Origin: the human T2T-CHM13v2.0 reference genome, Homo sapiens | Strand: one strand, 5' to 3' | Length of the DNA: 64,000 nt | NCBI RefSeq assembly: GCF_009914755.1 | Contig: NC_060933.1 | The notes under the pieces: model-generated | What the model was told of the DNA's origin: nothing | Databases searched by the model: none | Seen by the model: the letters and a program-made list of their open reading frames with translations, nothing else | In this document: one piece after another, positions 10,794 to 34,112 of the stretch | Layout: every line of letters starts with the position of its first letter | How positions within the stretch are numbered: position 1 is the first letter of the stretch | Translations under genes and position numbers: made by a program

Positions 10794-10916
10794 CTCCTGT
10801 AATGGGCACATAGGTAATCCGGAAGCTCTCCACTTGGGCCGTGGGTGCCCTCCAGCTGACAGTAGCCGAATTTTCAGTGATGTCTGAGAAAATGACTTCC
10901 TTTGGGGAGCCCATGG
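10794..10916 (-). CDS. TNC: TNC exon 18, FNIII-6 N-terminal half (123 nt)
   Basis: ACAG|CCATGG...GGAG|GTAGGA; (A)[40 protein letters not shown]. Confidence 0.97.
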
Positions 10917-14921: not shown

Positions 14922-15305
<384 letters not shown>

Positions 15306-15984
15306 TTACCAGTCCGTGCAATCTTCTCTCCAGTAGGGGTATCAATATGTAGTGATGCCCCGGCTTTCAGAGATAGAAGTGTCCTGAGATACCAAAAATA
15401 AAATCATTCAACATTAACAAGTCCAGTAGAGTCAGGAGAGGGGAAAGATGGAGTAGACACATTCAATACAAGTCAAGCATATGTTTGCATATGTGAGTTT
15501 TGTCTAAAAGCAATTCAGTAAATCCACATCTGGACTCAGCATTGGCCCGTCCCACATATTATTAAATAAGTTCAAAGCCAGTAAATTGTTTACATTTGCT
15601 CTCTGTCTTCCAGTGGCTGAGTGCCCATCCCCTGCAAGACCTTTTTCTTTTCTTTTTGAAAAGACAAATAAACCAGCATTAATGATCTGTAGAGCTGCTC
15701 ATGATGATACTGCTGATTACATTCTCCTTGAGCCTGCCCAAAATGGCTTTTAAAATGTTATGGTCTTTTTGCTTTGTTCTTAGTGCTGTTTCACTAAAGA
15801 AGGCTCCTACCCTTGACTTTTTTTTTTTTTTTTTTGCATTCTTTCTTGTTATTTTATTAACTATTAGATAAATGTTCAGATGGTAGAACTGAGGTTGGAA
15901 CCTTTTGTGCTACATACTGTGGACCCAGGGTTTCATCTTGCATTGCCTTAACTAGACAAAACTCAATGTCAATGTAGATTTAGA

Positions 15985-16268
15985 GCTGAGTTTCCCAAAG
16001 TGTGCTCACAGTGAACTATTCCTGTTTGATCCTCTTCCTTAAAAAGTATCCTTTGTCAAATAAGTTTGGAAAATACTGCCTGGATAAGTACTTCTTGGAG
16101 ATGATGCACGTTAGGGTGTTCTGAAAAGCCGTGCAGTTAAAGATCCTCTTTAACTTTGTTTAACTCAGTCTTTCCAAACTTATTTGAACGTGGAATTTCC
16201 TCACCGAGTAGGACCTTTGAACATTCTGTGGAGCTAGTAATCTCTAGAAAGACTTTGGGAAACACAGA
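15985..16268. mobile_element. hAT-Charlie-type MITE (MER102/MER112-like; subfamily uncertain)
   Basis: Terminal inverted repeats GTTTCCCAAAGT...ACTTTGGGAAAC and an internal inverted pair TCAAATAAGTTTGGAAA / TTTCCAAACTTATTTGA. Confidence 0.7.
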
Positions 16269-16670
16269 TGTTTGACTATTCCGTTGTTAATTTCTGTAGG
16301 AATCATTAGTCTTGAGAAAATTATGGATTTAGTCCGTGTTGCAGAGTCTCTCTGATATTAGTGATTACCGATAAAATAAGTTCACATTTGGTTTTCCAAT
16401 GACGAGCCCACTGGGTAAGTTTGTTAAGATCATGGTTGAGATTTTGAGATGGCAAAGGTTTTAAATACGTTTTGGAAATATACTCATTGGTATATTTCTT
16501 TTGAGAAGGCTGAAATGTAGCTGGGGACCAGCCAGGTTGATCACAAGGGACGATGATATGAGGTAAGCACACAAGAGCTATGGACAAGACAAGGTCTAAA
16601 GGATTTTGAATACAAAGCAGAAATATTTCGACCTTCTCATTTCTGGGGTGGGAGTGGGGAGTGTTCATTA

Positions 16671-17207
<537 letters not shown>

Positions 17208-17997
17208 TCATTCAATTTGTGTTATATGCTTAGAAAATGAAAATTCAGTAAGAACTTATTGGGTGCCAGATAGTGTTATCTTGTGCAATTCTCTTAATAG
17301 CCCATGAGGTAGGTATTATTCTAATTTCACACGTGAGCAAACTGAGTTTCAAAGAAGTTGATTGACTTAGCTAAAGTTACAAGCTTGTAAGAAGAGATAG
17401 AGCGAAGATTTTAGTCAGGTTTGACTCCAAAGGCCATGTAGTTCTTTATACAAATAGGTTGCATTTTGTTGAGTTTGGATCCCGTTGTCTACTTCCCACT
17501 GCCTTCAGCTCTTTTTTTTTTTTCGAGTATAATTTCTTTCCGGTATACTTCATGTGTTTCTATCCCACTTCTAGTGCACAGTTTGAATCAAATTAATGAA
17601 GTCAATTAGTGACATATCCTCACAAGCTGAAATAAAGGGAGGAGGTAAGTTTTTTTTTGTGTCAAAATTAATAGCTCATGGTTATAACCCACTAAGAAAT
17701 GATAAGATTTGCTAAATCTTTTGCTGTTTATTTTCCTGGATAAAGTTAGAAAACAAGAACACATCTGGGTCTTAGTAAATTCTGTCACCATCTCTCCTTC
17801 ATTCGTTCACCAAACATGTATGTCCCAGGCATTCTGATTTCTCAGGTGCTAAAGGGCCTTTTCACACATTGGGATATCCAAAAGGAGTGAGCTTATGTTG
17901 GCTAAGTTTCCATTGATACTTGCCAACTGACAAGGCTTCACATTGTTATCCTAGTTAGTCTTCAAAATGATACAGTAAGGTAGATATTGCTACCTGC

Positions 17998-18313
17998 CTT
18001 CCAACCCCGATCACATCTAAAAAAACCAGAGAGGTTAATGACTTATCCTAGGTCATACATCTGCTAGGTGCCTAAGCTGAGATACAATCAGGTCCTCCGA
18101 CTCCAAGTTCTATGTTCTTTCCATACCCAAAGCCAACCCCAATCAGTGATGGCAATCCTGAGGGATAAGGAGGATTAGTGGAGAAGGTTCAGCGTCTCTT
18201 TTCTAGGTGTTTTTTCTTTTTTCTTTTTTTTTTTCTGACAGTACTGGTAAATGCATTTTTTTTTTAATCAGAAGAAAAAAAGGAGACAGGAATTTCAAAT
18301 TAGCTGCATCTAG
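17998..18313 (+). repeat. Local duplication, copy 1 (~315 bp; partly MIR-derived)
   Basis: Near-identical to 19878-20206. Confidence 0.95.
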
Positions 18314-19877
18314 TTTAGACACTTCTTTTCCATTACAGCTAAATGGAAACTTACAAAGAGATAAATGCTCTTGCATTAATTCACTAATGCCTAGGGTCTA
18401 ATCCATGAGACATAAAGAAAAATGTTTTAAAAAGAAGTGTTTGGTGACTGAATGAATAAGGGAATGAATACCTTCATTTTGTAAATAGAGATTTAAATTT
18501 TGCTGTGGCTTGGACTTCCTGTAGTTATTTTGAAACACTTGGTGTTTATTCTGAGGCAGTTTTTTCCACGTAAAGATTTCCCAAGAATCATAATTCTATC
18601 AAAAGCGAGGATGAAATCTCTTATACTGGGCAAACAATCTTCGTCTGAGAGACAAGGGTCTCGAATTCTGTTCCTGGATTTTGTTTAGATAAGTGGCGTC
18701 TCTCTTTGATAGCTGGCCTCTTTGCACCTCCACACCATCAAAGCAGTGAATTCCAATGAAAGTGAGGGCATTCAGGCTAATTAGGCAATCAAGGGCTTGT
18801 TATTTAAGAGTCCCTCCTGTTTTGTTTTTTTCTTTTTTAATATGCTTCTTTTAAAACGCAATCTTTTCACATCATGGATTAGCTGAGACAATGCTGTAAC
18901 TGGATCTAGGATTCCCAAGACTGGGTCTCTCAGCTTCCTTTTCTTCTGTTATGTGGGAGGTCCTGCAAGCCGCTACAAGCAATGGCCTGATGGGATCTGT
19001 GGCCATTTCTCCCCTCCTGAGGAGTGAGAATCTCATCTCGTTCCTCCTTGTCTCAGTCCCTTAAGAAATTACCATGTTCTGCATTTGAAGACTCATCTGA
19101 ATGATTTAATTCACATTAGGTAACTGGATAGGAAAAAATACTCATTTTTTAATCTTACATTAAAACACATCCAAAGTTCTCTTAAAAACGAGAGGGAGTT
19201 CATGATTGCATAGGTCTATTGTTCTATCTAGCCTTATTGGTTATTTTTAAGAAAGCCACTTTCCTAATAATGTTGGGAGACAGCAGAAAGAACCTAGCAT
19301 GTATAAAATTCCTACTGGATGCTAGGCAGTTAAATTTCACCAACTCTATTTAATCTATGAGACAAGGCTCCCAGAAGTGCCTGTGGTATCCTCTCTCCAT
19401 GCATAAGGAAATTAGGGTTCAAACAAGTTAAGAACTTGCTAAAATTATGTAGCTAAAAAGCTGTGGGAGAGGTTTAGAAACCACAAAAGCTTGATCTCAA
19501 AATCCTCACTCTTCCAGGACACCATGCTGCCTATAATTAAATATTTAATTGTACTAATTGACATGTCTTAGTGATGGCAATTTAGACCCTGGGAGAGACC
19601 TGGTTTAATGTGAAAATCAGATGGCAAAGTCCATCTTCTGAAAATTATCACTAATGAAAAGGAAGAGACTTCTAAATATTTTCTGAGGCTTTTTGGGCTA
19701 GAATTTAGTAAACTGACACCATGTGCAGCCTTTGCCATTGAAGTTTTTGCTGTCACCATTTGGCAGCATTTGCCAAATTGAACATTGGCAAATGTTCAAG
19801 AAGTCAAGTTGAGTGAATGGGTAGGGCTTAATTAAACTTGAAATTTATCTGCCATCTGAGGTTGAACCTTCATCAAT

Positions 19878-20206
19878 CTTCCAACCCCTATCACATCTAA
19901 AAAAACCAGAGAAGTTAATGACTTATCCTAGGTCATACATCTGCTAGGTGCCTAAGCTGAGATATACAACCAGGTCTTCCGACTCCAAGTTCTACGTTCT
20001 TTCCATACCCAAAGCCAACCCCAATCAGTGATGGCAATCCTGAGGGATAAGGAGGATTAGTGGAGAAGGTTCAGCGTCTCTTTTCTAGGTGATTTTTCTT
20101 TTTTCTTTTTTTTCTTTTTTTTTTTTTCTGACAGTACTGGTAAATGCATTTTTTTTTTAATCAGAAGAAAAAAAGGAGACAGGAATTTCAAATTAGCTGC
20201 ATCTAG
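19878..20206 (+). repeat. Local duplication, copy 2 (~329 bp)
   Basis: Near-identical to 17998-18313; about 6 substitutions plus indels, mostly in T runs. Confidence 0.95.
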
Positions 20207-20552
20207 CTGCATCTGTGTTGTCAGTTTTAAGAATAATTATTTTTTAAAGAAAAAGATGGTTATACTTTTGGCACATATATGAACTGTGTTACCTAGCATG
20301 ATTTATGAACAGGATTTCGATCTTAGGCCTTTACTAACTTAGGAGTCACTTTTTAGGCAGAATCTCTAAACTAGGGATAAAACAGCCAATAAAACTGGGC
20401 ACAAAAAACCCTAAAAGCTTTATACAACTCTTGAGAACGTTCTCTCCACTTCCTAAGAGCAGCTGTGAAAGTCCTCTCCTTTATAATAGTATCTGCTTTC
20501 TCTTTACTTAGAAGTTTACATATATTATCTTGGCTATCATGAGTAATGTATT

Positions 20553-21057
20553 GTAACCTGTGTCTGTCAATGGATGAATGGATAAAGAAAATGTGGTGTA
20601 TAGATAGATAGATCATATTTATATATAAATATATACATTCCATATGTGTGTATATATACATATATATATATATACACATATATATATAATGGAATACTTT
20701 ATAGCCTTAAAAAAGAGGAAAATTCTGTCATTTTCAACAACACGGATGAACCCAGAAGACATTGTACAGAGTGAAATAATCGAGGCACAGAAAGACAAAT
20801 ACTGCGTGATCTCATTTGTGTAATCTAAGAAAGCTGAACACATAGAAGCACAGAGAAGACTGGTGGTTACCGGTGACTGGGGTTGGGGAGATGAAGAAAG
20901 GGGAGATGTTGGTCAAGGAGTACAAAGTTCAGTTAGACAGAAGGAATAAGTTTTAGTGATCTACTGCACAGCATGGTGACTGGCCATAGTTAATAATAAC
21001 ATATTGAATACTTCAAAATTCCTAAAAGAGTAGATTTTAAATGTTCTCACAGCACAA

Positions 21058-21092
<35 letters not shown>

Positions 21093-21211
21093 GGTGAGGT
21101 GATTGATATGTTAATTAGGTTGATTCAATCAATCCACAATGTATATGTATATCAAAACAACACACTATTCTCCATAAATATATACAATTACTATTTGTCA
21201 ATTAAAAATAA
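20553..21211 (+). mobile_element. L1 3' end (L1MA/MB-like) with internal (TA)n and (TAAA)n
   Basis: GATGAATGGATAAAGAAAATGTGG...ACAGAAAGACAAATACTGC...AGAGTAGATTTTAAATGTTCTCAC...TTTGTCAATTAAAAATAA. Confidence 0.9.
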
Positions 21212-21319
21212 GAGAGTACACATTTGCAGTGAAGATTGTATTTTTGTTGAATTTTCCTTTAAGATGACTTATCTCCTTTTCTCTCTGTGTTAGACAAGTG
21301 AGAACCTCTGATTGAGTAC

Positions 21320-21595
21320 CTGTAATGACAAAGGCAGTGAGGGGTCTGGTGGGATCCCCAGCCAAGGTGGTTCCTGCCACACTGACGTCATAGCCAGTGT
21401 TCTCCACCAAGCCTGTGATGTGAGCTTGCTTTGCATCTCCTGAGACTGTGAATTGCTGGGACTCATGCAGTGAGTGAGCGTCACTCACATTGATAACAAT
21501 CTTTGCAAAAAGCCCAGCTTGAGTGGTCCATGACATGTTGAAGCTTTTTGGAGTAATATTGCTAAAGATTAGCGTGCCCAACTGTGGCTTTGGTT
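21320..21595 (-). CDS. TNC: TNC cassette exon AD1 (additional FNIII domain 1; 276 nt, in frame)
   Basis: TTAG|AACCAA...ACAG|GTACTC; (E)PKPQLGTLIFSNITPKSFNMSWTTQAG...ITGLVENTGYDVSVAG...PLTAFVIT has the FNIII W/L/Y signature; lies between B and C. Confidence 0.93.
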
Positions 21596-21932
21596 CTAAA
21601 GAAGGAATATGGGCAGAGAGAAAGAGAGAGACATTATTAGAGGAAGCAGTGGATTTTTCCAGAATGTAGCCATAGAACATGAAAGCATCAATATCTCCAA
21701 ATACATACAGAAGAGACAGTATGTTAGGCTGTGTCTACACCTGCATTGAATATGATGATAGAAAATATATTGCTTTCTCTGCAGGTGTATATTTGTGTTC
21801 TTTATTTTTATTTTATTTTTTAGATCTGTGTTCTTTTAAAGCATAAACACCACCATTTGCTAGTCATGTATGAAGAAGAGTAGACAAGCCATTAGAGTGG
21901 TAGATTGGAGTAATGTGAAGGGTATTAAGGCT

Positions 21933-22224
21933 ACATTTTCTAAAGTTTGTACTGGGGACACAAGCCCTGTAAGATGTTCCAAGAAAAGACAGCTTTATGA
22001 TTAAGTATGCATGGTAAACACCGAATATTATGTCTTACCATAGAGATTCACAAGGTGGGTTTGCATTTTAAAGGCTCTGACAGGCTGGTTCTGTCAGTAA
22101 ACCTGTTTAATTTTGTTTGGCCCAAATTTCATAAACTTATTGATCAATGTATACCCTATCTGAGGAATATCCTTTGAACATCTCAAGGAGCTGGTGTTCC
22201 ATTGAACATGTTTTAGAAAATGCT
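21933..22224. mobile_element. hAT-Charlie-type MITE, apparently the same family as 15985-16268
   Basis: TIR-like ends CATTTTCTAAA...TTTAGAAAATG; shared internal block (CAGTAAA..C.TGTTTAA.TTTGTTT...AAACTTATT). Confidence 0.6.
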
Positions 22225-23088
22225 TCTTTGGAGTTTCCTCATTTAGTATTCTTTTTTAGTATCTACTGTTTGCACAAATTAAAGGCTAATACCCATACAA
22301 GAGAAATTTTTACAGTACTTAATATGCATTGTAGGAAAATCTATATTTTACCATTTAATACCGTAAAGGTGAAGATGGCTTCCATTAAAAATTCCCAGTG
22401 AATGCAAAGGTGAAAGAAAAACTTGAAGTTAGGCATTGAATTTTCTGCTTAGGAAACTCAATTATTGGATAATTTGGACAGATAGATGGTTTCCCTGAGG
22501 TTAAGTATCTCTTTTCTGTTAAAGTCTAGACATTCAGTTTTGAGAGCAACTCATTTAATGTTAAGGGGTCTATATGGCTAGATGTTTATGGGGCTGGCCT
22601 CCTAAATGCTCATTTATCAAATAAAACTAATTTTAAAGTAAGTGCGGCCCAGACTGTATTTTAGAGAGAGGCAACAGTACTGGAGGATTCAGATATTAAG
22701 ATCAGGATTTAGGGTTGGGAAGAGGCACAATATTTCTTCCAAGGACTTGGGAGTTATTTTGCTTCAGCTCCAAAGTTTGGAGGAAAGAAGGGGCTCATTT
22801 GGATAAACTTTAATGGCACAATTATACAGCATAATTCGATGTCATAAAATCTCTAAGAACAAAAAGGATTTGGTTCAGAAGCAGAATATAGCCATTAGCA
22901 TTGACATGGGATATCCTCCTTATCAATTAGTTTCAGAAGGTAACAATGCAATCATTTGCAGCTATAGCTTTGACAAATTCCCTCAACCACACAAAAGATT
23001 AAAATGTTCCAAGTGGAACTCTGTTATTTCCCTATATTTTGCTGTAGAAACAATCTCCCAAATTAAGGATGCACGCTGGGATTCTTCT

Positions 23089-23670
23089 CATGCTACCAGA
23101 CAGACTATCAATGCCAACAGATTCACCATGCAGAATAAGACTCAGGTTCTTGAGGTCAGCTTTACCTCCAGCTGCCTCTCAAAGGGTGCAACCAAGCTGA
23201 GAAATGAGATGCAAGAAAAAACAGAGAAAGATAGTGGTAGTTAGGGTATGGTCAATGTTCCATGCAAAATGAGGGGCATTTTTCTCCCACCACTTTAAAC
23301 CTTCTGAAATGACTCATGGACATGCTAGCTGCTTCCAGGAAAAAGAAACATTTTCAAAATTTAATGCTCTGAATATTCACCACATGCACCAAGATTTGGA
23401 CAAGATGATGGCTTGAAAGAAGAGCCTGAGACTTTGTGACAGCTATCAGTGGGTGACAAAATGTGCTTGACAAAGTACATGTCAAAAAAGAGTAGTCTTC
23501 AGACAAAAATCACGAGAACAAGATAAGACTACTGGGTCCTCTCATGCAATTCTTGGGTTGTGATTCAGAGTCTATTCTCAGCATGCTCAGGGCACCTTTA
23601 TTTTTTAAAATCCTGCTAGAGAGAAAGAGAGTGTAGATCTTTCTGACCAAGTCACCAGAAATGGCATGCA
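23089..23670 (-). promoter_or_regulatory. Cluster of RBFOX-type splicing elements downstream of exon AD2
   Basis: TGCATG on the transcript strand at 23127, 23261, 23383, 23543, 23665; additional GCATG at 23089, 23321, 23582. Function is inferred. Confidence 0.6.
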
Positions 23671-24055
23671 CATACCTCTTTGAACATGACATAGGCAAAC
23701 TTTGATTAGAACGACCACAGGCAGATGATAATGGGTGGGATTGAAAAAGATTATTCAAGATCAGATGAAAAGATGATTTAGAAATTCAACCAAAGCAAGT
23801 CAGGTTAACTTTATACAAACAAACAGAACAACTCCAGATGTGAATGGATATTTAGGAAAAAGAGGTTTGACACTGAAATTCTTTAATTTGGGGTGAGAGT
23901 TATTTTAAAGCTTTAAAGCTTTGATTTGGATGGCTCTATCAAATTTGAGAAGGATTGGGAGCAACTAGGAGGGTGAAAAGTGGGTAGCGGGTGATTTTTG
24001 GAAAGCTATTCAGAGGAAATTCAATGAAGAGTGAAGAAGCCATAATAGGAAATAC

Positions 24056-24329
24056 CTGTGGTTGCTTGGACCATCAGGGTCTGAGCACGCTGCCCGCCAA
24101 TCAAGCCCATGAAGGTGGGCAGTGTAATTAGAAGAAGCTTTGAGGTTGGTGATGACAGAGCTGCGAGACACCCCAGGCACAGACAGCACCATGGTCTCAT
24201 GGGGGTGATCGGAATTACTAACTTCTATAAGAAAGCTATCAAAGGCAGACTCCTGAGCTTCCCACGAGATGGACACACTGCCCCAGGTCATGTTTGAGAC
24301 AGTGAGGTGGCTAAGAAGAGGTTTGGCTA
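24056..24329 (-). pseudogene. TNC: TNC cassette exon AD2 (FNIII), 274 nt, frameshifted by one extra base
   Basis: Long T tract then TTTAG|TAGCCA...ACAG|GTATTT. Reads (V)AKPLLSHLTVSNMTWGSVSISWEAQ...ITNLKASSNYTAHLHGL; the FNIII tail IGGQRAQTLMVQATT continues only in the shifted frame (extra base near 24103-24104). Confidence 0.88.
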
Positions 24330-24759
24330 CTAAAGCAAGAAAAAAAAGAAAAAAGAAAGTGTGTCAATTTAAAACACCATTGTAGAGTCAAAATCAAAAC
24401 ACATAAGACTAAATCCATAAAGTTTTAGACTTTACCCTTTGTTAATGGTAAAATAATTTGTCCCTTGTTGAAAATCGGTTGGAGCCATGAGAAACAAACA
24501 TATATGTTTGCCTAATTTTCTCCTCTAAGTTTTTTTATACTTGAACCTGGCTGAGATAGCAACTGGATAATGTTGGCTCTCTCTGCCTTATCCATGGATC
24601 ACCCTGACGACAATTTGTAGCCTCATGTAGAATGAGGACAGACCCTCTCTCAACCATGGGTGACCTAAATGACAGGCAATTTTGATGCTACGATGTCAAC
24701 CCTTTTCTTGGATTTCCCAGACCATGAGTCCCCTTTTTGTAAACTATAAGGAAAAATTA

Positions 24760-24875
24760 TCCTGTGTTTGTTCTGTAGACAATATTTTTTTTTTCTAGTT
24801 TGTGATTTCTTCATTTCTCCTGTGTTTGTTCTGTAGATATTGTTTCTTTTTTTCTAGTTTGTGATTTCTTCATTT
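24760..24875. repeat. Tandem duplication, 2 x ~58 bp
   Basis: TCCTGTGTTTGTTCTGTAGA...TTTTTTCTAGTTTGTGATTTCTTCATTT twice. Confidence 0.9.
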
Positions 24876-25711
24876 ACCTCTCCAGAGAAGGCACTGTCTA
24901 AATTGTGCTAAGAATGCTACTTTGAATGTAGCATTAGAAAGGGGGGCTCCCCTTTCTAAATTCACATAGGGTTGTCTTTTACTGCATGGCAAAGAGCATC
25001 TGACTTAGTGCACATCTCACAGACACCACAAATTTAAAGTGAGAGCAGTTTATTCTTTTGTTTTTTAAACTAAGTCCCTTGTTTGAACACAACTATTCTA
25101 CTTTTATTTTTGCCATTTATCATTCACTATTCTGAGGGCAAGACAGCATGTTCTGATCTTCTAGAGGTGGTGTTGGAACTGGGGTGGTCTGAATGGCATG
25201 GCTGCCTCCTGCACTCATCTGATAAGTAATCTTTGCTGTTTCCCTTTACTTTCCCAGTTGGAAAAAAATACCCAACACCATCAACATGATTATTAAATCA
25301 CTGGGATATTTGGGTATTGCGAGGTCCAAGAGACTAGGAAGACAAAGACACTAAGATAATACAAAATAAAATTTACAAGACCTCTTTGACTGAGGCAGAC
25401 ATCTTTCAAAGTCAAGAACAGGTCTAGTTATATAGCTTTTTAGTTATGAGAGGTTAGAATTCTTTTCTCTAGATTCCATATGGCAAATTAGACTGAACTA
25501 CATTTTATGCTGTAAACATCCTGGTCAGTGATAAATCAGGCACATGTCTTTATGGCAATGCATTATTTGGGCTGCTGTTGGAAAAGAGTTATGTTAAACA
25601 GCACCCCAGCCTAGCACCATGGAAGAGTTAGTGCCCTGTGGCTTGTACATCAATGGGAGAGGAGAAGGAGAGGCTTCACCCTGCAAAGAAGACTGTGGAG
25701 AGAGTGCGTTA

Positions 25712-26122
<411 letters not shown>

Positions 26123-28222
26123 TCAGGGCTATGATGGAAGGAAGCAATGTTACCAATTAGTGCCAAAGGGAGAGAAAAAGCAGTTTTGTTAAAAGAAATT
26201 AGAAAAAGGAAGGTATGGCAATTAGATTTCTCTACATGCAGTTGCCACATATAATCAGGCCCTGGCCAAGAAGATGTGCTGAATGATCTTATCAGGAACT
26301 GTTGCATCTTAACCACACTTGCCTCTGGGAGCCCTACCTCAGGGTTGCTGGCCACTGGTCAAAAGATATGAGTCCTGGCAACTTCCAGTCTCTTGAATTG
26401 CATTAAGGAAACCAAGATTACTTGGATGCCTTCCACAGACATTCTTTACTTTGAAGGAGCTCCCATCTATTCAAATGAGGGCTAAATAATTCTGATGCCA
26501 TTACCTTCCCAAGGTGGTAACTTGAGGCTTCTGATTTTGTGACTTAATGGTAATTACCAATTTCTCAGTGTAATTCTTGGTATTTTTTTCATACTTTAGA
26601 GAAGGACCAGCCAGCCATTCTCATATTCTGTTAAAATAGCTTGTCCTCTCTTAACTGCTGCTATGTGGGCCAAAAAGGCTAGTATTGCATTGCCAACCAA
26701 GAGGGCTAAGCCAAGGCAAGGCAGTTTAGGCCATCCCTTTCAGCGAAGAAATAACATTTTGTCTTGAAGATGGTCCTGCCAGTGCTTTCCCCAACCATAA
26801 GAATAAAACATGCAGAGGGCAGGTAGGAGCAGGGTTTGAAAAGCTAGTACTGTCTCTTTAGCAAGAAAGAAGGCTCCTGGTCTCTGAGATCCTTCTAATA
26901 GATTTGTTGAGATACAGATCAGATGGGATTATGGAACTTCCTGCACATAGGCCAATTCATCAGTGGCAAGAATGTTGCTATTGTTAAGAAGAAAAACACA
27001 CACACATAAAAATACTGAGGACACCCAAGCCACAAGATCTGCAGAAAAGATCAGAAGTGGTGGGTGATTACTTTGCCTTCTGGGAAGGGATGGTTTATGG
27101 GTCTCAGAAAAAGGAGGTCCGGGTGCCTTCAGAGTAGCCTCGGCTGCAAATTCTAGGCATTTCAGGGTCACCGTCCTGGCAGTGGTTGCCTGTGCTTTAT
27201 GTTTCTTTATCTCAGTGAAAATTAGTGAAATGACTGAGGTTAAAATGCAGAGCTATGCTCTTGCTAGATTCAACTGGGATGTACAGGTATGCATTAAAGT
27301 TTAGTTGCAATAATTATTTAAAAAGGGGGGCAGTCATATGCAAAATGAAGCGATAGTCTCTACCGAGCTTCAAACCCATGGAGGCACATAATAAAGATGA
27401 GCAACGGAAAACTGTGTCAGAGGAAGGCTGCTGACTTTGGCAGGCCCCCGGGAAACACTGAAGTCTTGTAACAGGGGTAGAGTGACGAGTAAACTATAAT
27501 GCACCCTCCTGGGTCTGGGGCTGGGAGTTTGCCATCCAAAGGCCAACACTCCAGAGAGAAACTCTTGATTAAAAGAGCAAAAAGGGTATCAGTTCTTTGA
27601 CATTCATAGCCCAGGACATTCCTTGTTCCAAAAGCTGCTGTGTGTACTTGTGCTAATGAATGGCTTTCTCTTTGGTACAGTCTCCAGTCATAATTGTGTA
27701 ATTTCTTTTTTTTTCCTTCTGGTCTAGCTATTTGCTAATTTGATGTTCTAACAATGACTCAGTATCTGAGAGAACTGCCCGGAGGAGGGTAATTCAGTTC
27801 TCTTATTATACTGGGTGCATTTTAAAGAAACATTTCTTACATGCAAGAACCACACTACCCATATCCTTGAGGGATTTAGAGATAGAAAAGCACCATTTCC
27901 AACTAGCAAAAGACTCTCAGCAGTAAATAATCTGTGTTCCACCAGAACTCATATATAGGGAGGGAAGCTTTTAGTTATCTCCAAGCACTGGAGAAGTGAA
28001 TTAAAACCATCAGGCTGATTCCTGAAACAAAAATTCATCATTCAAAAAAGATGTAGAATCAGCCAGGTAAAGTATGAAAGGCTGGGGGGCTGGAGATCAG
28101 AAAGGGCAACACCTGCATCATTCACCATCCACATGGCAAAGGCATGAGGACAAAGTCATAGCCCACAGGGAGGTCTCTGAGCATGCACAGCCGGCCACTG
28201 AAAGGCACATGAAAAGGATTCA

Positions 28223-28609
<387 letters not shown>

Positions 28610-28929
28610 TCAGTTCTATAAACCAAAAATGAGGAAACCAAACATCCCACAGCCCAACTCTAGGAAAGAGAGAAAGGGGAAAGATAATTTTTTTTTTTAA
28701 TTCTTGGTCTCTGAGCATTTGCAATTTGAACTGTGGTTCCCTGGCCACAGTTGTCTTCAGGAGTTGAAAATGGCCAGAAAGGGAAATATCTACATGGTTT
28801 ATCCTTGAGATGGCAAAGACATCTGCACCAATGCACAACCCACCGGGAGCATGCATTGCTAGCAGGTGAAATTCACATGGAAAAGTAGGATTGTGGGTTA
28901 GGGTAAGAGATACAGCGATGGTTACAAGT

Positions 28930-29160
28930 GCAGAATTTGGAGGCAAGTAGTCCTTGATTAGAATCCCAATACTAGCATTTGCTAGCTGCATAATCTTGGG
29001 CATGTCACTCAGCTTCTCTCTGAGCCACCCTCTCTTTACCTTTAAATGGAGTTGATGGTACTGTTTCATGGGATTGCGTGATGATTAAATGGTAATATTT
29101 ATCAACTTCTTAGTATCATACCTGATACATGGCGAGTGCCCAATAAGTGTCAGCTTAATA
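28930..29160. mobile_element. MIR SINE
   Basis: CTAGCTGCATAATCTTGGGCATGTCACTCAGCTTCTCTCTGAGCC...GATTAAATG. Confidence 0.65.
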
Positions 29161-30905
29161 AAGAAATCATTGTTCAAGTGTTTTCCCTTGGAATTTCTTA
29201 CTCATGTCAGGGAGAAATCCCTGCTTTATTTCATTATTTATAATTAGAAAGATTATCTCATCACTAGCCACTGGCTACCTGCCTGGGTTGATAAAGTGTA
29301 TGCTGTCTCAGGTGTGAACAAGTATGATGTTTTTTCTTTGGTCTTCTATCAGCTTTCAGGGATCAAAAGTTGTGTACTGGGTTCTCAGCTTGTTTCTTCT
29401 TCCACCTTTTTCTGCTTGTACTTTATGTCTAAAGGAAGAATGGCTGTATCACAGAGCAAAGCTGTTTGTGTGAAATGAGTGTGCCTACTTTTAATTAAAA
29501 GAAAGGAGATTTTTCTCAGTAAATGGTGCAGAACAGAACCCACTATTACTGCTTCTACAATGTAGAAAGGAAATTTAACGTAGTTGTTATTGGTGATTTA
29601 GAAAGTTTGGATTTAGGATATGGAAAAACCCATTGTTTTGTGGGATGCTTCTGAGGGTTAAATGCAGTCTCTCAGCCACTGTTTTGAAGGCTGAAGTGGC
29701 CATGGGTTAGAAGTTAGGGAGGAGAATATCTGCAGGGATTTCAACCAAAAATAGTTGAAAGATATAGATACTTGCTCTTGGGTATCCAAGGATTCAATGC
29801 CCTGTGAGAGTCTGAGCAACCTCTGAGCAACCTCTTGCTTTTAAGAGGGGTTATTTTCAAACTGTGTTCCACATAGATCTGGGGCTTTTCTAGAAGAACT
29901 GTGTTGAGAACATGGGTGGAGGTATCCCCCTCTTACTTCCAGGCACACCAAGAACAGCTGTTCACTTATCTGTCAAATAGTAGGGTTCCTTGGAAGATTT
30001 CATTTGCAAAAGGAGTTGTACTGCTAAAAACAAAAGTTTGCGGACTACAGAGGAAGATATGAGCATCTTGCACACAGGCCACACCTGTCTCAAAGGCCCT
30101 TTTTGCTCTTGTTTGATCTGAAGATATTCCAGGCAACACAGGAATAAAACCTGGCCCCCTTATTTTTGGAATTTTATGTAGTTTCTAGCAACCACCAAGT
30201 TTATCTGTTATATAAGAGCAAGGAAAACAATTGTTTTGAATTGAGTGATTTGGATTGCATTATCAAAAGGCAGCATATGTAGAGTGGGGCATGGGCTTAG
30301 GGCTCAGCACAGAAACCCTATCACCAAAAAGTTGGCCCTTTTTCCCATAGCCCTTTTTGAAGCTATTTCTAGAAACCTCATGTACAGCACAGTTTTTTAT
30401 AACAGATGGAGCAGCTCATTTTTGGTGGAAAATTGAGAGGAATTGTTTTTCCTTCCCAAATTGAATGAAAAGCATTGAAGTCAAAGGTGGCTGTCCTTTC
30501 TTGGAAATGTCCCTGCTTTTTGTATCTGTTGAGGAGAGAGTCCTAGATAGTTTCAGCAGAAGCTAACTGCATCATTTCTAAAGGTTATTATGTAGAGATC
30601 TGCCTATCAGTTGGGTGTTAGTTGGTGGCTCTGAAGCTAGTAATAAGGTTTTTCTAGAAAGTTCTGATCTTATTTTTGTGCCACAGCCCTAACGTTTGTG
30701 CTATTTTAAAAATCATGACTCTGTTGCTGTATGATAAATTTAGCTATTTGCTATTCAGTATTTACTACGTGATGGGCGCTTTACTAAGCACTGACATTCA
30801 TTAACTTATTTATTGCTCACGACAGTTTCCTGAAGTAGGGTTCATTGCTGATTTAAAGATACAAAAAGGAGGCTCAGGGATGTAAAGAAATATACCCAAG
30901 AATAG

Positions 30906-31320
<415 letters not shown>

Positions 31321-31492
31321 AGTCCCAAGAATATTTAGCTAGTGAGGTGGAATTCCAACACAGACCTTCCTGAGTTAGAGATTCACGCTGTCTGTCAACA
31401 ACATTGGGGTAGGATTCTGCCACACGGGTGAATTTTCTCTATTTCAATGACATGCTGGCTCCTATCATGTCTCCAGTCTGGGAGGAGGGTCA

Positions 31493-31918
<426 letters not shown>

Positions 31919-32260
31919 TCAAACTGTTGGCACTAAAGCCAGGGTTTTTCTATTCAGCTTTTGGGAATGAAAAGTAGTTTTAGGAATTGTTCACAATTTC
32001 TATTCTTGACATACAAATAGGGCTATGGGGAGTCCTTTGGTGTTCTTAAAATGAGCTCATGAGCTCAGAGCTATTTTTTCTTCATTTACAGGTTGGGCTT
32101 TCCAACTTTTTAGATATTGTGACTGAAACTTACTTTGAAAGAAAAGCCACCTCTCACTTTTTTAAAGGAGGAGTAGGTGGAATTTTCCATGGAACTGGGC
32201 TACAACTAGGACTTAGCCAAATAAGGGATGTGACATTTAGGAAGAAGCAGAGATGATTCA

Positions 32261-32761
<501 letters not shown>

Positions 32762-33168
32762 TTAGATAAACATGCATCATGCAACTCTTTAAATTTTAGA
32801 AATGGAGCAAAGAGAGGAAAGTGCAGGAAAATATTTGTTTTTGTTTGTTTTTTAAATCTTAAAGAATTGCCTTAACCCTCAGTAGATGAGAGAATTTTGT
32901 GATTTTCTTTCCCTTTCATATATAGTGCCTTAACGTCCTTTAACAGGAGGGAGGCTGTTTATGGAGCTAAAGGCCCTCTGCATGGGAGCTGTGTGTTTAG
33001 TCCTGCAGGTTGAGCTCTGTACAACTCCCAAGGGTGTCATTCATGTGGAGTGAAGTATTAAAAGTTGCCTTGGGGTTCTGTAGCGTGATGGCCTCTTGTC
33101 ACAATTAGACCCCATAGACATAAGTAGTGGCAGAACAAGTCCATTCCAAAGCTAGTCGTGTCTGATTA

Positions 33169-33522
<354 letters not shown>

Positions 33523-33657
33523 TCAGTTAAACTATTCCTCAGAAAGTTTTGCTTCTGAGAACCTGGGAATGGCAAACCCAATGCCACATCTATAGGCCAT
33601 TGCAGTCCAAGTGCCAGGCTTTGTTCACTGCATCCCCTACTGGTGCTGTCCCTATTA

Positions 33658-33995
<338 letters not shown>

Positions 33996-34112
33996 TTTCT
34001 TTTGCCTTCATGCATATTTGGGTTTTTCTCTTGGAAATGGTATTTTCCTATTGATCAGTGTCCTGCAGATTTAGAAAACTATATGTCTATGTTAGCGATG
34101 CTCTGAGCTTCA

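What the first reader, a model, noticed from the sequence alone, without database searches (positions are those of the whole stretch)
24056..24329. The AD2 FNIII exon is frameshifted and looks like a poison exon inside the TNC cassette array
Seen: every other cassette is 273 or 276 nt, but AD2 is 274 nt. The frame is FNIII-like up to ...NYTAHLHGL. The sequence GGG CTTG ATT has one extra base near 24103-24104, and removing it restores IGGQRAQTLMVQATT and the shared phase-1 ACAG|GT end. Manual splicing gives a stop 11 codons into AD1 (TAG, 21562-21564), 14 codons into C (TAA) and 6 codons into D (TGA), all far upstream of the last junction. The tandem TAG-TAG acceptor cannot fix the frame. There is no other lesion, and the acceptor has a long U tract. 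Known: AD2 is described as a protein-coding tenascin-C domain, and such premature stops trigger NMD. Inference: on this haplotype AD2 inclusion cannot yield full-length AD2 protein, so it is a recently disabled exon or a regulated NMD switch. I cannot tell whether the base is fixed, polymorphic or an assembly error.
Basis: partly seen in the sequence, partly recalled or inferred. Interest (0 to 1): 0.85.

Follow-up and report, generated by a model that had tools for sequence, protein, structure and literature searches.

The report
One-base frameshift in TNC exon AD2
The reference copy of the tenascin-C gene carries one extra base in a rarely used optional exon (AD2), so messages that include this exon stop early on this copy; it looks like an ordinary tolerated variant that the public annotation already steps around, not a built-in regulatory switch.

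Summary
The TNC AD2 exon (window 24056-24329, minus strand) is 274 nt. The other eight cassettes are 273 nt, or 276 nt for AD1. The FNIII reading frame fits a profile of the sister cassettes up to residue 75. The last 15 residues fit only in the other frame.

Read from this DNA, all 6 curated AD2-containing mRNAs end after 1537-1631 aa instead of 2201-2384 aa. The stop lies 12-13 junctions before the last junction. No frame-restoring cryptic splice site scores near a real one.

RefSeq aligns those 6 curated mRNAs with a 1-base gap at 24103, so a 273-nt AD2 underlies the curated records. None of the 5 models predicted on this assembly includes AD2.

Best reading: a real 1-bp insertion allele on the CHM13 haplotype. 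It disables only AD2-bearing isoforms, by frameshift, early stop and predicted NMD. The other 38 of 44 annotated transcripts are untouched.

"Regulated poison exon" has no support. Allele frequency, GRCh38 state and ape state could not be checked here. Interest is low to moderate.

The parts
24056..24329 (-). TNC AD2 cassette exon, 274 nt on this assembly
   Evidence: RefSeq exon rows 24056-24102 and 24104-24329. Single copy in the assembly.
24103..24104 (-). Two adjacent T (minus strand), one of them extra relative to the curated mRNAs. RefSeq leaves out 24103.
   Evidence: GGGCTTGATTGG; 1-base gap in 6 of 6 AD2-containing BestRefSeq mRNAs.
24103..24327 (-). 75 codons in the entry frame, covering FNIII strands A to F
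   Evidence: Pfam fn3 35.8 bits (cut-off 25), profile 5-66 of 84. Cassette profile 65.3 bits. PDB best match Tencon, 3e-12, ending at residue 74. AF2 model has strands up to residue 75.
24057..24101 (-). 15 codons of the FNIII G-strand region, readable only in the other frame (IGGQRAQTLMVQATT)
   Evidence: In the genomic frame the tail adds 0.1 bit and is modelled without a G strand, with mean pLDDT 42 over residues 81-90.
24327..24332 (-). Tandem TAG-TAG acceptor. The annotated exon starts at 24329 and the alternative at 24326. The two differ by 3 nt, so neither repairs the frame.
24330..24354 (-). Acceptor with pyrimidine tract (22 of 25 nt)
   Evidence: Crude PWM score 15.0, 4th highest of 24 TNC acceptors in the window.
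24050..24055 (-). Donor gtattt after CAG
   Evidence: Crude PWM score 11.1, tied 2nd of 24.
21562..21564 (-). First in-frame stop (TAG) when AD2 is joined to AD1
   Evidence: 4 curated transcripts.
17068..17070 (-). First in-frame stop (TAA) when AD2 is joined to C
   Evidence: 2 curated transcripts.
15241..15243 (-). First in-frame stop (TGA) when AD2 is joined to D
10874..10876 (-). First in-frame stop (TGA) when AD2 is joined directly to the next constant exon

Best explanation
The CHM13 haplotype carries a real 1-bp insertion, a doubled T on the coding strand, in the optional AD2 exon of TNC. The comparison is with the sequence in RefSeq's curated AD2-containing mRNAs.

When the exon is spliced in, the frame shifts after residue 75 of the repeat and the FNIII G strand is lost. 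A stop follows 6-14 codons into the next exon, and the message is predicted to be degraded by NMD. When the exon is skipped, which is true of most annotated TNC transcripts, nothing changes.

It is therefore an isoform-specific loss-of-function allele of AD2, most likely a tolerated human polymorphism. It is not a designed switch.

Shown: the extra base, the frame break, the stops, the lack of splice rescue and the annotation gap. Inferred: NMD, that the base is real, and that it is polymorphic.
For: The exon is 274 nt against 273 or 276 nt in the sister cassettes. The frame breaks at residue 75.

All 6 curated AD2 mRNAs are aligned with a gap at 24103, and 0 of 5 Gnomon models include AD2. 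Those 6 transcripts truncate at 1537-1631 aa instead of 2201-2384 aa, with 12-13 junctions downstream.

The best frame-restoring cryptic site scores 1.3, against 4.9-18.6 for annotated sites. The locus is single copy, so no paralogue can confuse it.

The extra base sits in a 2-nt run, not a long homopolymer. T2T-CHM13 accuracy is stated as about 1 error per 10 Mbp (passage of PMC9186530).

AD2 is reported as an FNIII repeat found in human cDNA, with 70% amino-acid similarity to chicken AD2 (passages of PMC4422809).
Against: I could not see GRCh38, other haplotypes, reads, population tables or ape orthologues. The frequency and even the polymorphic status are therefore inferred.

The curated mRNAs might have been built from cDNA rather than from a genome. 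In that case the gap does not prove that GRCh38 differs.

NMD was not measured. The AD2 protein search was blank, but it could reach only proteins of 41-131 aa. No paper I found mentions the indel.
Confidence: 0.8

Rival explanations
1. The extra base is fixed, or nearly fixed, in humans. AD2 is then a dead pseudo-exon, and the curated mRNAs represent a corrected or rare form.
For: 0 of 5 models predicted on this assembly use AD2. AD2 mRNA is rarer and lower than AD1 mRNA: 23.1% against 34.9% of 134 carcinomas, and 0.55-8.96% of TNC transcripts in cell lines (PMC2949648). No named short AD2 protein was found. I could not inspect GRCh38.
Against: Six curated NM records encode an intact 273-nt AD2. 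AD2 was first described from human cDNA as a complete FNIII repeat. RefSeq normally marks NMD candidates rather than issuing coding NM records (my recollection of practice, not a call).
Confidence: 0.1
2. AD2 is a regulated poison exon. Its inclusion is used to lower TNC output through NMD.
For: On this haplotype inclusion gives a stop far upstream of the last junction. The splice sites are strong.
Against: The stop comes from one extra base inside an otherwise intact FNIII-coding exon. The curated mRNAs lack that base. Papers treat AD2 as a protein domain, including reviews that report functional effects of AD2AD1-containing isoforms. Inclusion is only a few percent of TNC mRNA, too little to set total TNC dosage. 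I have no conservation data for the stop.
Confidence: 0.04
3. The extra base is an assembly or polishing error in T2T-CHM13.
For: The only other gene on chr9 with the same annotation signature is CEL. Its insertion was said to be possibly an assembly error.
Against: The CEL case lies in a homopolymer inside a VNTR. Here the context is a TT pair in unique, single-copy sequence. Stated accuracy is about 1 error per 10 Mbp, far below the rate of true indel differences between haplotypes (general knowledge).
Confidence: 0.03

Closest known systems
Human tenascin-C FNIII AD2 cassette (Mighell et al. 1997 as described in PMC4422809; Guttery et al. 2010, PMC2949648)
   Same: It lies between B and AD1 and encodes one FNIII repeat in a single exon. 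It has the same phase-1 CAG|GTA exon ends as the sister cassettes.
   Different: It is 274 nt here instead of a multiple of three, so the G strand and everything downstream are lost. The published qPCR primers and probe match exon sequence upstream of the indel, by my reading. That assay therefore cannot tell the two forms apart.
Loss-of-function alleles carried by the T2T-CHM13 reference (bioRxiv 10.1101/2021.07.12.452063, section 23)
   Same: It is a frameshifting difference between the reference haplotype and the standard gene model. Such variants are mostly common and tolerated: 158 of 210 were seen in 1KGP, with median allele frequency 0.47.
   Different: It hits an optional exon, so only 6 of 44 annotated transcripts are affected. 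I could not see whether it is in that paper's Table S5.1, because supplements are closed.
Poison exons (cassette exons coupled to NMD; examples recalled, not from a call)
   Same: It works the same way on this haplotype. Inclusion brings a premature stop more than 50-55 nt before the last junction.
   Different: The stop is allele-specific and arises from an indel in a coding domain exon. It is not a conserved built-in stop, and there is no evidence of regulation or conservation.
CEL 1-base coding gap on the same chromosome
   Same: It has the same signature in RefSeq's alignment to CHM13. CEL and TNC are the only 2 of 748 chr9 genes with curated mRNAs that show it.
   Different: The CEL case lies in a homopolymer of a VNTR and may be an error. 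The TNC case lies in a TT pair in unique sequence.

Membership tests
Fibronectin type III domain (Pfam PF00041) | Sequence match above the curated cut-off | tested here: met
   Residues 1-75 score 35.8 bits against a cut-off of 25, covering profile positions 5-66 of 84. Tencon in the PDB matches at 3e-12.
Fibronectin type III domain (Pfam PF00041) | Complete seven-strand sandwich including the C-terminal G strand | tested here: not met
   In the genomic frame the tail adds 0.1 bit, against 5.8-18.4 bits in the 8 sister cassettes. The AF2 model has six strands up to residue 75, and residues 82-90 have pLDDT below 50.
Fibronectin type III domain (Pfam PF00041) | Conserved core residues shared with the sister repeats | tested here: met
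   P3, W22, L62 and G74 are invariant across all 9 cassettes.
TNC alternatively spliced FNIII cassette exon | One repeat per exon, phase 1 at both ends, length a multiple of three | tested here: not met
   The exon is 274 nt. The other 8 cassettes are 273 or 276 nt.
TNC alternatively spliced FNIII cassette exon | Position between B and AD1, AG acceptor, CAG|GTA donor | tested here: met
Poison exon (regulated splicing coupled to NMD) | Inclusion places a stop more than 50-55 nt upstream of the last exon junction | tested here: met
   The stop lies 1873-2158 nt and 12-13 junctions upstream in 6 of 6 AD2 transcripts read from this DNA.
Poison exon (regulated splicing coupled to NMD) | The stop is a constant feature of the exon, not of one allele | tested here: not met
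   Six curated mRNAs lack the base and read through to 2201-2384 aa. Caveat: the source of those records was not visible to me.
Poison exon (regulated splicing coupled to NMD) | Cross-species conservation of the exon, its stop and its flanks | not testable with these tools
   No vertebrate genomes were available. The protein search reaches only 41-131 aa for this query.
Poison exon (regulated splicing coupled to NMD) | Included transcripts rise when NMD is blocked | not testable with these tools
   This needs an experiment.
Tolerated loss-of-function polymorphism of a reference haplotype | A single disabling lesion against an otherwise intact functional form | tested here: met
   There is one frame break, no stops in either partial frame, and intact splice sites.
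Tolerated loss-of-function polymorphism of a reference haplotype | Both alleles present in the population, with a measurable frequency | not testable with these tools
   Reads, other assemblies and population tables are off. The only evidence is the base rate.
Assembly error | Error-prone context (long homopolymer, repeat, low coverage) | tested here: not met
   The context is a TT pair in unique single-copy sequence. Coverage could not be checked.

The most novel reading that the evidence does not exclude
The 274-nt allele may be common in people. Then AD2 would be a polymorphic exon. Carriers would lose every AD2-bearing tenascin-C isoform to NMD. Genotype would also be an unrecognised confounder behind the patchy, low AD2 signal reported in tumours and normal tissue. 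I give about an even chance to 'common' alone. The probability below is for the full claim that genotype measurably shapes AD2 or TNC expression data.
Probability: 0.2. Interest if true: 0.5.

Novelty: new member of a known kind. Interest (0 to 1): 0.25.

Why it matters
The effect is mainly practical. On T2T-CHM13 the AD2 exon cannot be translated from the genome. Predicted models on this assembly drop it, and curated models need a 1-base gap. People with the intact exon will show up as carrying a 1-bp coding deletion when called against this reference.

For tenascin-C biology, AD2 has been proposed as a tumour-associated domain. A haplotype that cannot make AD2 protein would matter for AD2-directed assays or reagents and for interpreting AD2 mRNA levels.

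It does not affect the main TNC isoforms. It is not evidence of a new regulatory mechanism.

Tried and rejected
- **Short-protein search.** The 75-aa AD2 piece found no named protein. The length rule limited it to 41-131 aa, and 11 unnamed candidates were left out, so the blank says little. Full-length tenascins of humans or apes were out of reach, because a spliced protein may not be typed and a chain of searches would exceed the cap. I left 2 of the 3 searches unused.
- **Literature.** No paper pairs tenascin, AD2 and frameshift in a relevant way. One search gave 1 hit, a hearing-loss review judged from its listing only and not opened. CHM13 + TNC + frameshift gave 0 papers. Neither form of the AD2 tail peptide is printed anywhere (0 papers). 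The large TNC review has no mention of nonsense, NMD or premature. Accession EU295718, given for AD2 in that review, is called the AD1 sequence in the original paper. The primary paper on AD2AD1 function is not held, so I saw only what two later papers say of it.
- **Splice rescue.** I listed all GT and AG sites within 150 nt that would make the exon a multiple of three. The 3 donors score -1.7 to -0.1 and the 6 acceptors -2.9 to 1.3. Annotated sites score 4.9-18.6. The matrix is crude: it uses 23 sites from this gene, 8 of them sister cassettes. I did not look for compensating cryptic acceptors inside AD1, C or D.
- **Dating.** The argument 'no other lesion, so recent' was rejected as too weak.
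- **Surroundings.** No annotated element or masked repeat lies within about 3 kb of AD2.

Full report
**What is there.** The window is part of TNC on the minus strand. The nine alternatively spliced FNIII cassettes lie in the order A1, A2, A3, A4, B, AD2, AD1, C, D. Each is one exon with an AG acceptor and a CAG|GTA donor. Seven are 273 nt and AD1 is 276 nt. AD2 (24056-24329) is 274 nt.

**Where the frame breaks.** Entered in phase 1, like its sisters, AD2 reads as a good FNIII repeat for 75 residues.
- Pfam fn3 scores it 35.8 bits against a cut-off of 25.
- The closest solved structure is Tencon, with E = 3e-12 and an alignment that stops at residue 74.
- A profile built from the 8 other cassettes matches the entry frame over positions 2-75 (65.3 bits). 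It matches positions 73-90 only in the other frame, weakly (1.7 bits).
- In leave-one-out tests the last 15 residues add 5.8-18.4 bits in each of the 8 other cassettes. In AD2 as encoded they add 0.1 bit. AD2's first 75 residues score 65.3 bits, close to AD1 and C at 70.1 bits each.
- The other-frame tail, IGGQRAQTLMVQATT, ends in T like all 8 sisters.
- An AlphaFold2 model of the repeat as encoded has six confident strands up to residue 75 and no G strand. Residues 82-90 have pLDDT below 50. The alignment behind it had only 9 sequences.

The break falls in GGGCTTGATTGG on the minus strand. There is no other lesion: neither partial frame has a stop and the splice sites are intact.

**Consequences for the message.**
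- AD2 joined to AD1: TAG at 21562-21564, codon 11.
- AD2 joined to C: TAA at 17068-17070, codon 14.
- AD2 joined to D: TGA at 15241-15243, codon 6.
- AD2 joined to the next constant exon: TGA at 10874-10876.

The tandem TAG-TAG acceptor shifts the start by 3 nt and changes nothing. For the six curated AD2 transcripts, reading from this DNA ends after 1537-1631 aa instead of the annotated 2201-2384 aa. The stop lies 12-13 junctions and 1873-2158 nt before the last junction. By the established 50-55-nt rule these messages should undergo NMD. That is an inference and was not measured.

Among all GT and AG sites within 150 nt that would restore a multiple of three, the best scores 1.3 on a crude matrix. 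Annotated sites score 4.9-18.6 on the same matrix. AD2's own sites score 15.0 (acceptor) and 11.1 (donor).

**What the annotation already says.** Of 44 annotated TNC mRNAs, 38 are BestRefSeq, 1 is the Select transcript and 5 are Gnomon predictions. Six BestRefSeq records contain AD2: NM_001439065, 66, 67, 69, 71 and 74. All six are aligned with a 1-base gap at window 24103 (chr9:127248103). None of the 5 Gnomon models contains AD2, although 4 of them contain AD1.

The curated records therefore hold a 273-nt AD2, and this assembly has one base more. On chr9 only 2 of 748 genes with curated mRNAs show such a coding gap of 10 nt or less, CEL and TNC. Deletions in the assembly would not show up in this test. 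The exon is single copy in the assembly.

**Real base or error.** I could not see reads. The context is a TT pair in unique sequence. The assembly's accuracy is stated as about 1 error per 10 Mbp (passage of PMC9186530). The CEL case, by contrast, was described as an insertion in a homopolymer of a VNTR that may be an error. I take the TNC base as real, with a probability of about 0.97.

**Allele or fixed.** I could not see GRCh38, other haplotypes, population tables or apes.

Evidence that points to a polymorphism:
- The curated mRNAs lack the base.
- AD2 was first reported from human cDNA as an FNIII repeat with 70% amino-acid similarity to chicken AD2 (passages of PMC4422809).
[quoted passage not shown] Of these, 158 were found in 1KGP, with median allele frequency 0.47 (whole of section 23 of the preprint).

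Evidence that cuts the other way:
- AD2 mRNA is less frequent and less abundant than AD1 mRNA. It was found in 23.1% against 34.9% of 134 carcinomas and made up 0.55-8.96% of TNC transcripts in cell lines (passages of PMC2949648).
- No predicted model on this assembly uses AD2.
- My short-protein search was blank, though the blank means little.

With generic mutation rates (recalled), a second disabling hit in 273 nt would take tens of millions of years on average.

**Poison exon?** On this haplotype the exon behaves like one, but membership fails. The stop depends on one allele-specific base inside an otherwise intact coding domain. Later papers treat AD2 as a protein domain and report functional effects of isoforms with AD2AD1 (the primary paper is not held). 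Inclusion is only a few percent of TNC mRNA. I found no paper on an AD2 frameshift, NMD or poison exon in TNC. Supplementary tables that might list the variant are closed.

**Verdict.** The best explanation is an isoform-specific loss-of-function allele of AD2 on the reference haplotype, already side-stepped by RefSeq's alignment, with predicted NMD of AD2-containing messages (confidence 0.8). Rivals are a fixed pseudo-exon (0.1), a regulated poison exon (0.04) and an assembly error (0.03).

It is a new member of a known kind. Its value is practical, for users of the T2T reference and for AD2-directed assays, rather than conceptual. Interest is 0.25. That would rise if the allele proves common and shapes AD2 expression data.

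Noticed in passing
window 24327-24332 (minus strand): AD2 has a tandem TAG-TAG acceptor. The annotated site gives V-A-K-P at the exon start. The second site would give A-K-P, which resembles the start of cassette B (A-K-E-P). A 3-nt shorter AD2 form may therefore exist.
   Followed up: partly
window 14987-33500, donors of the nine cassettes: All nine cassette exons end in CAG and are followed by GTA plus a pyrimidine. None has G at intron position +5. This uniform, non-consensus donor type is consistent with their origin by tandem duplication and with regulated skipping.
   Followed up: no
chr9:145285666 (outside the window), gene CEL: CEL is the only other chr9 gene whose curated mRNAs are aligned to this assembly with a 1-base coding gap. 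A published passage calls a CEL VNTR homopolymer insertion in CHM13 a possible assembly error.
   Followed up: partly
window 21320-21595 (AD1): AD1 is 276 nt. In the alignment its extra codon falls in the loop after the F strand (TTLAGD against a gap in the others).
   Followed up: no
window 28312-28584 and 33228-33500 (A4 and A1): A1 and A4 are much closer to each other than to any other cassette. Their translations are nearly identical over long stretches, a sign of a later duplication or of gene conversion within the array.
   Followed up: no
window 31744-32943 and 33303-34045: Two annotated enhancer elements overlap the coding cassette exons A1, A2 and A3.
   Followed up: no
literature, not the window: The TNC review gives accession EU295718.1 for AD2, but the paper that deposited it calls it the sequence of AD1. 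This looks like a citation slip, and it leaves the accession of the human AD2 cDNA unclear.
   Followed up: partly
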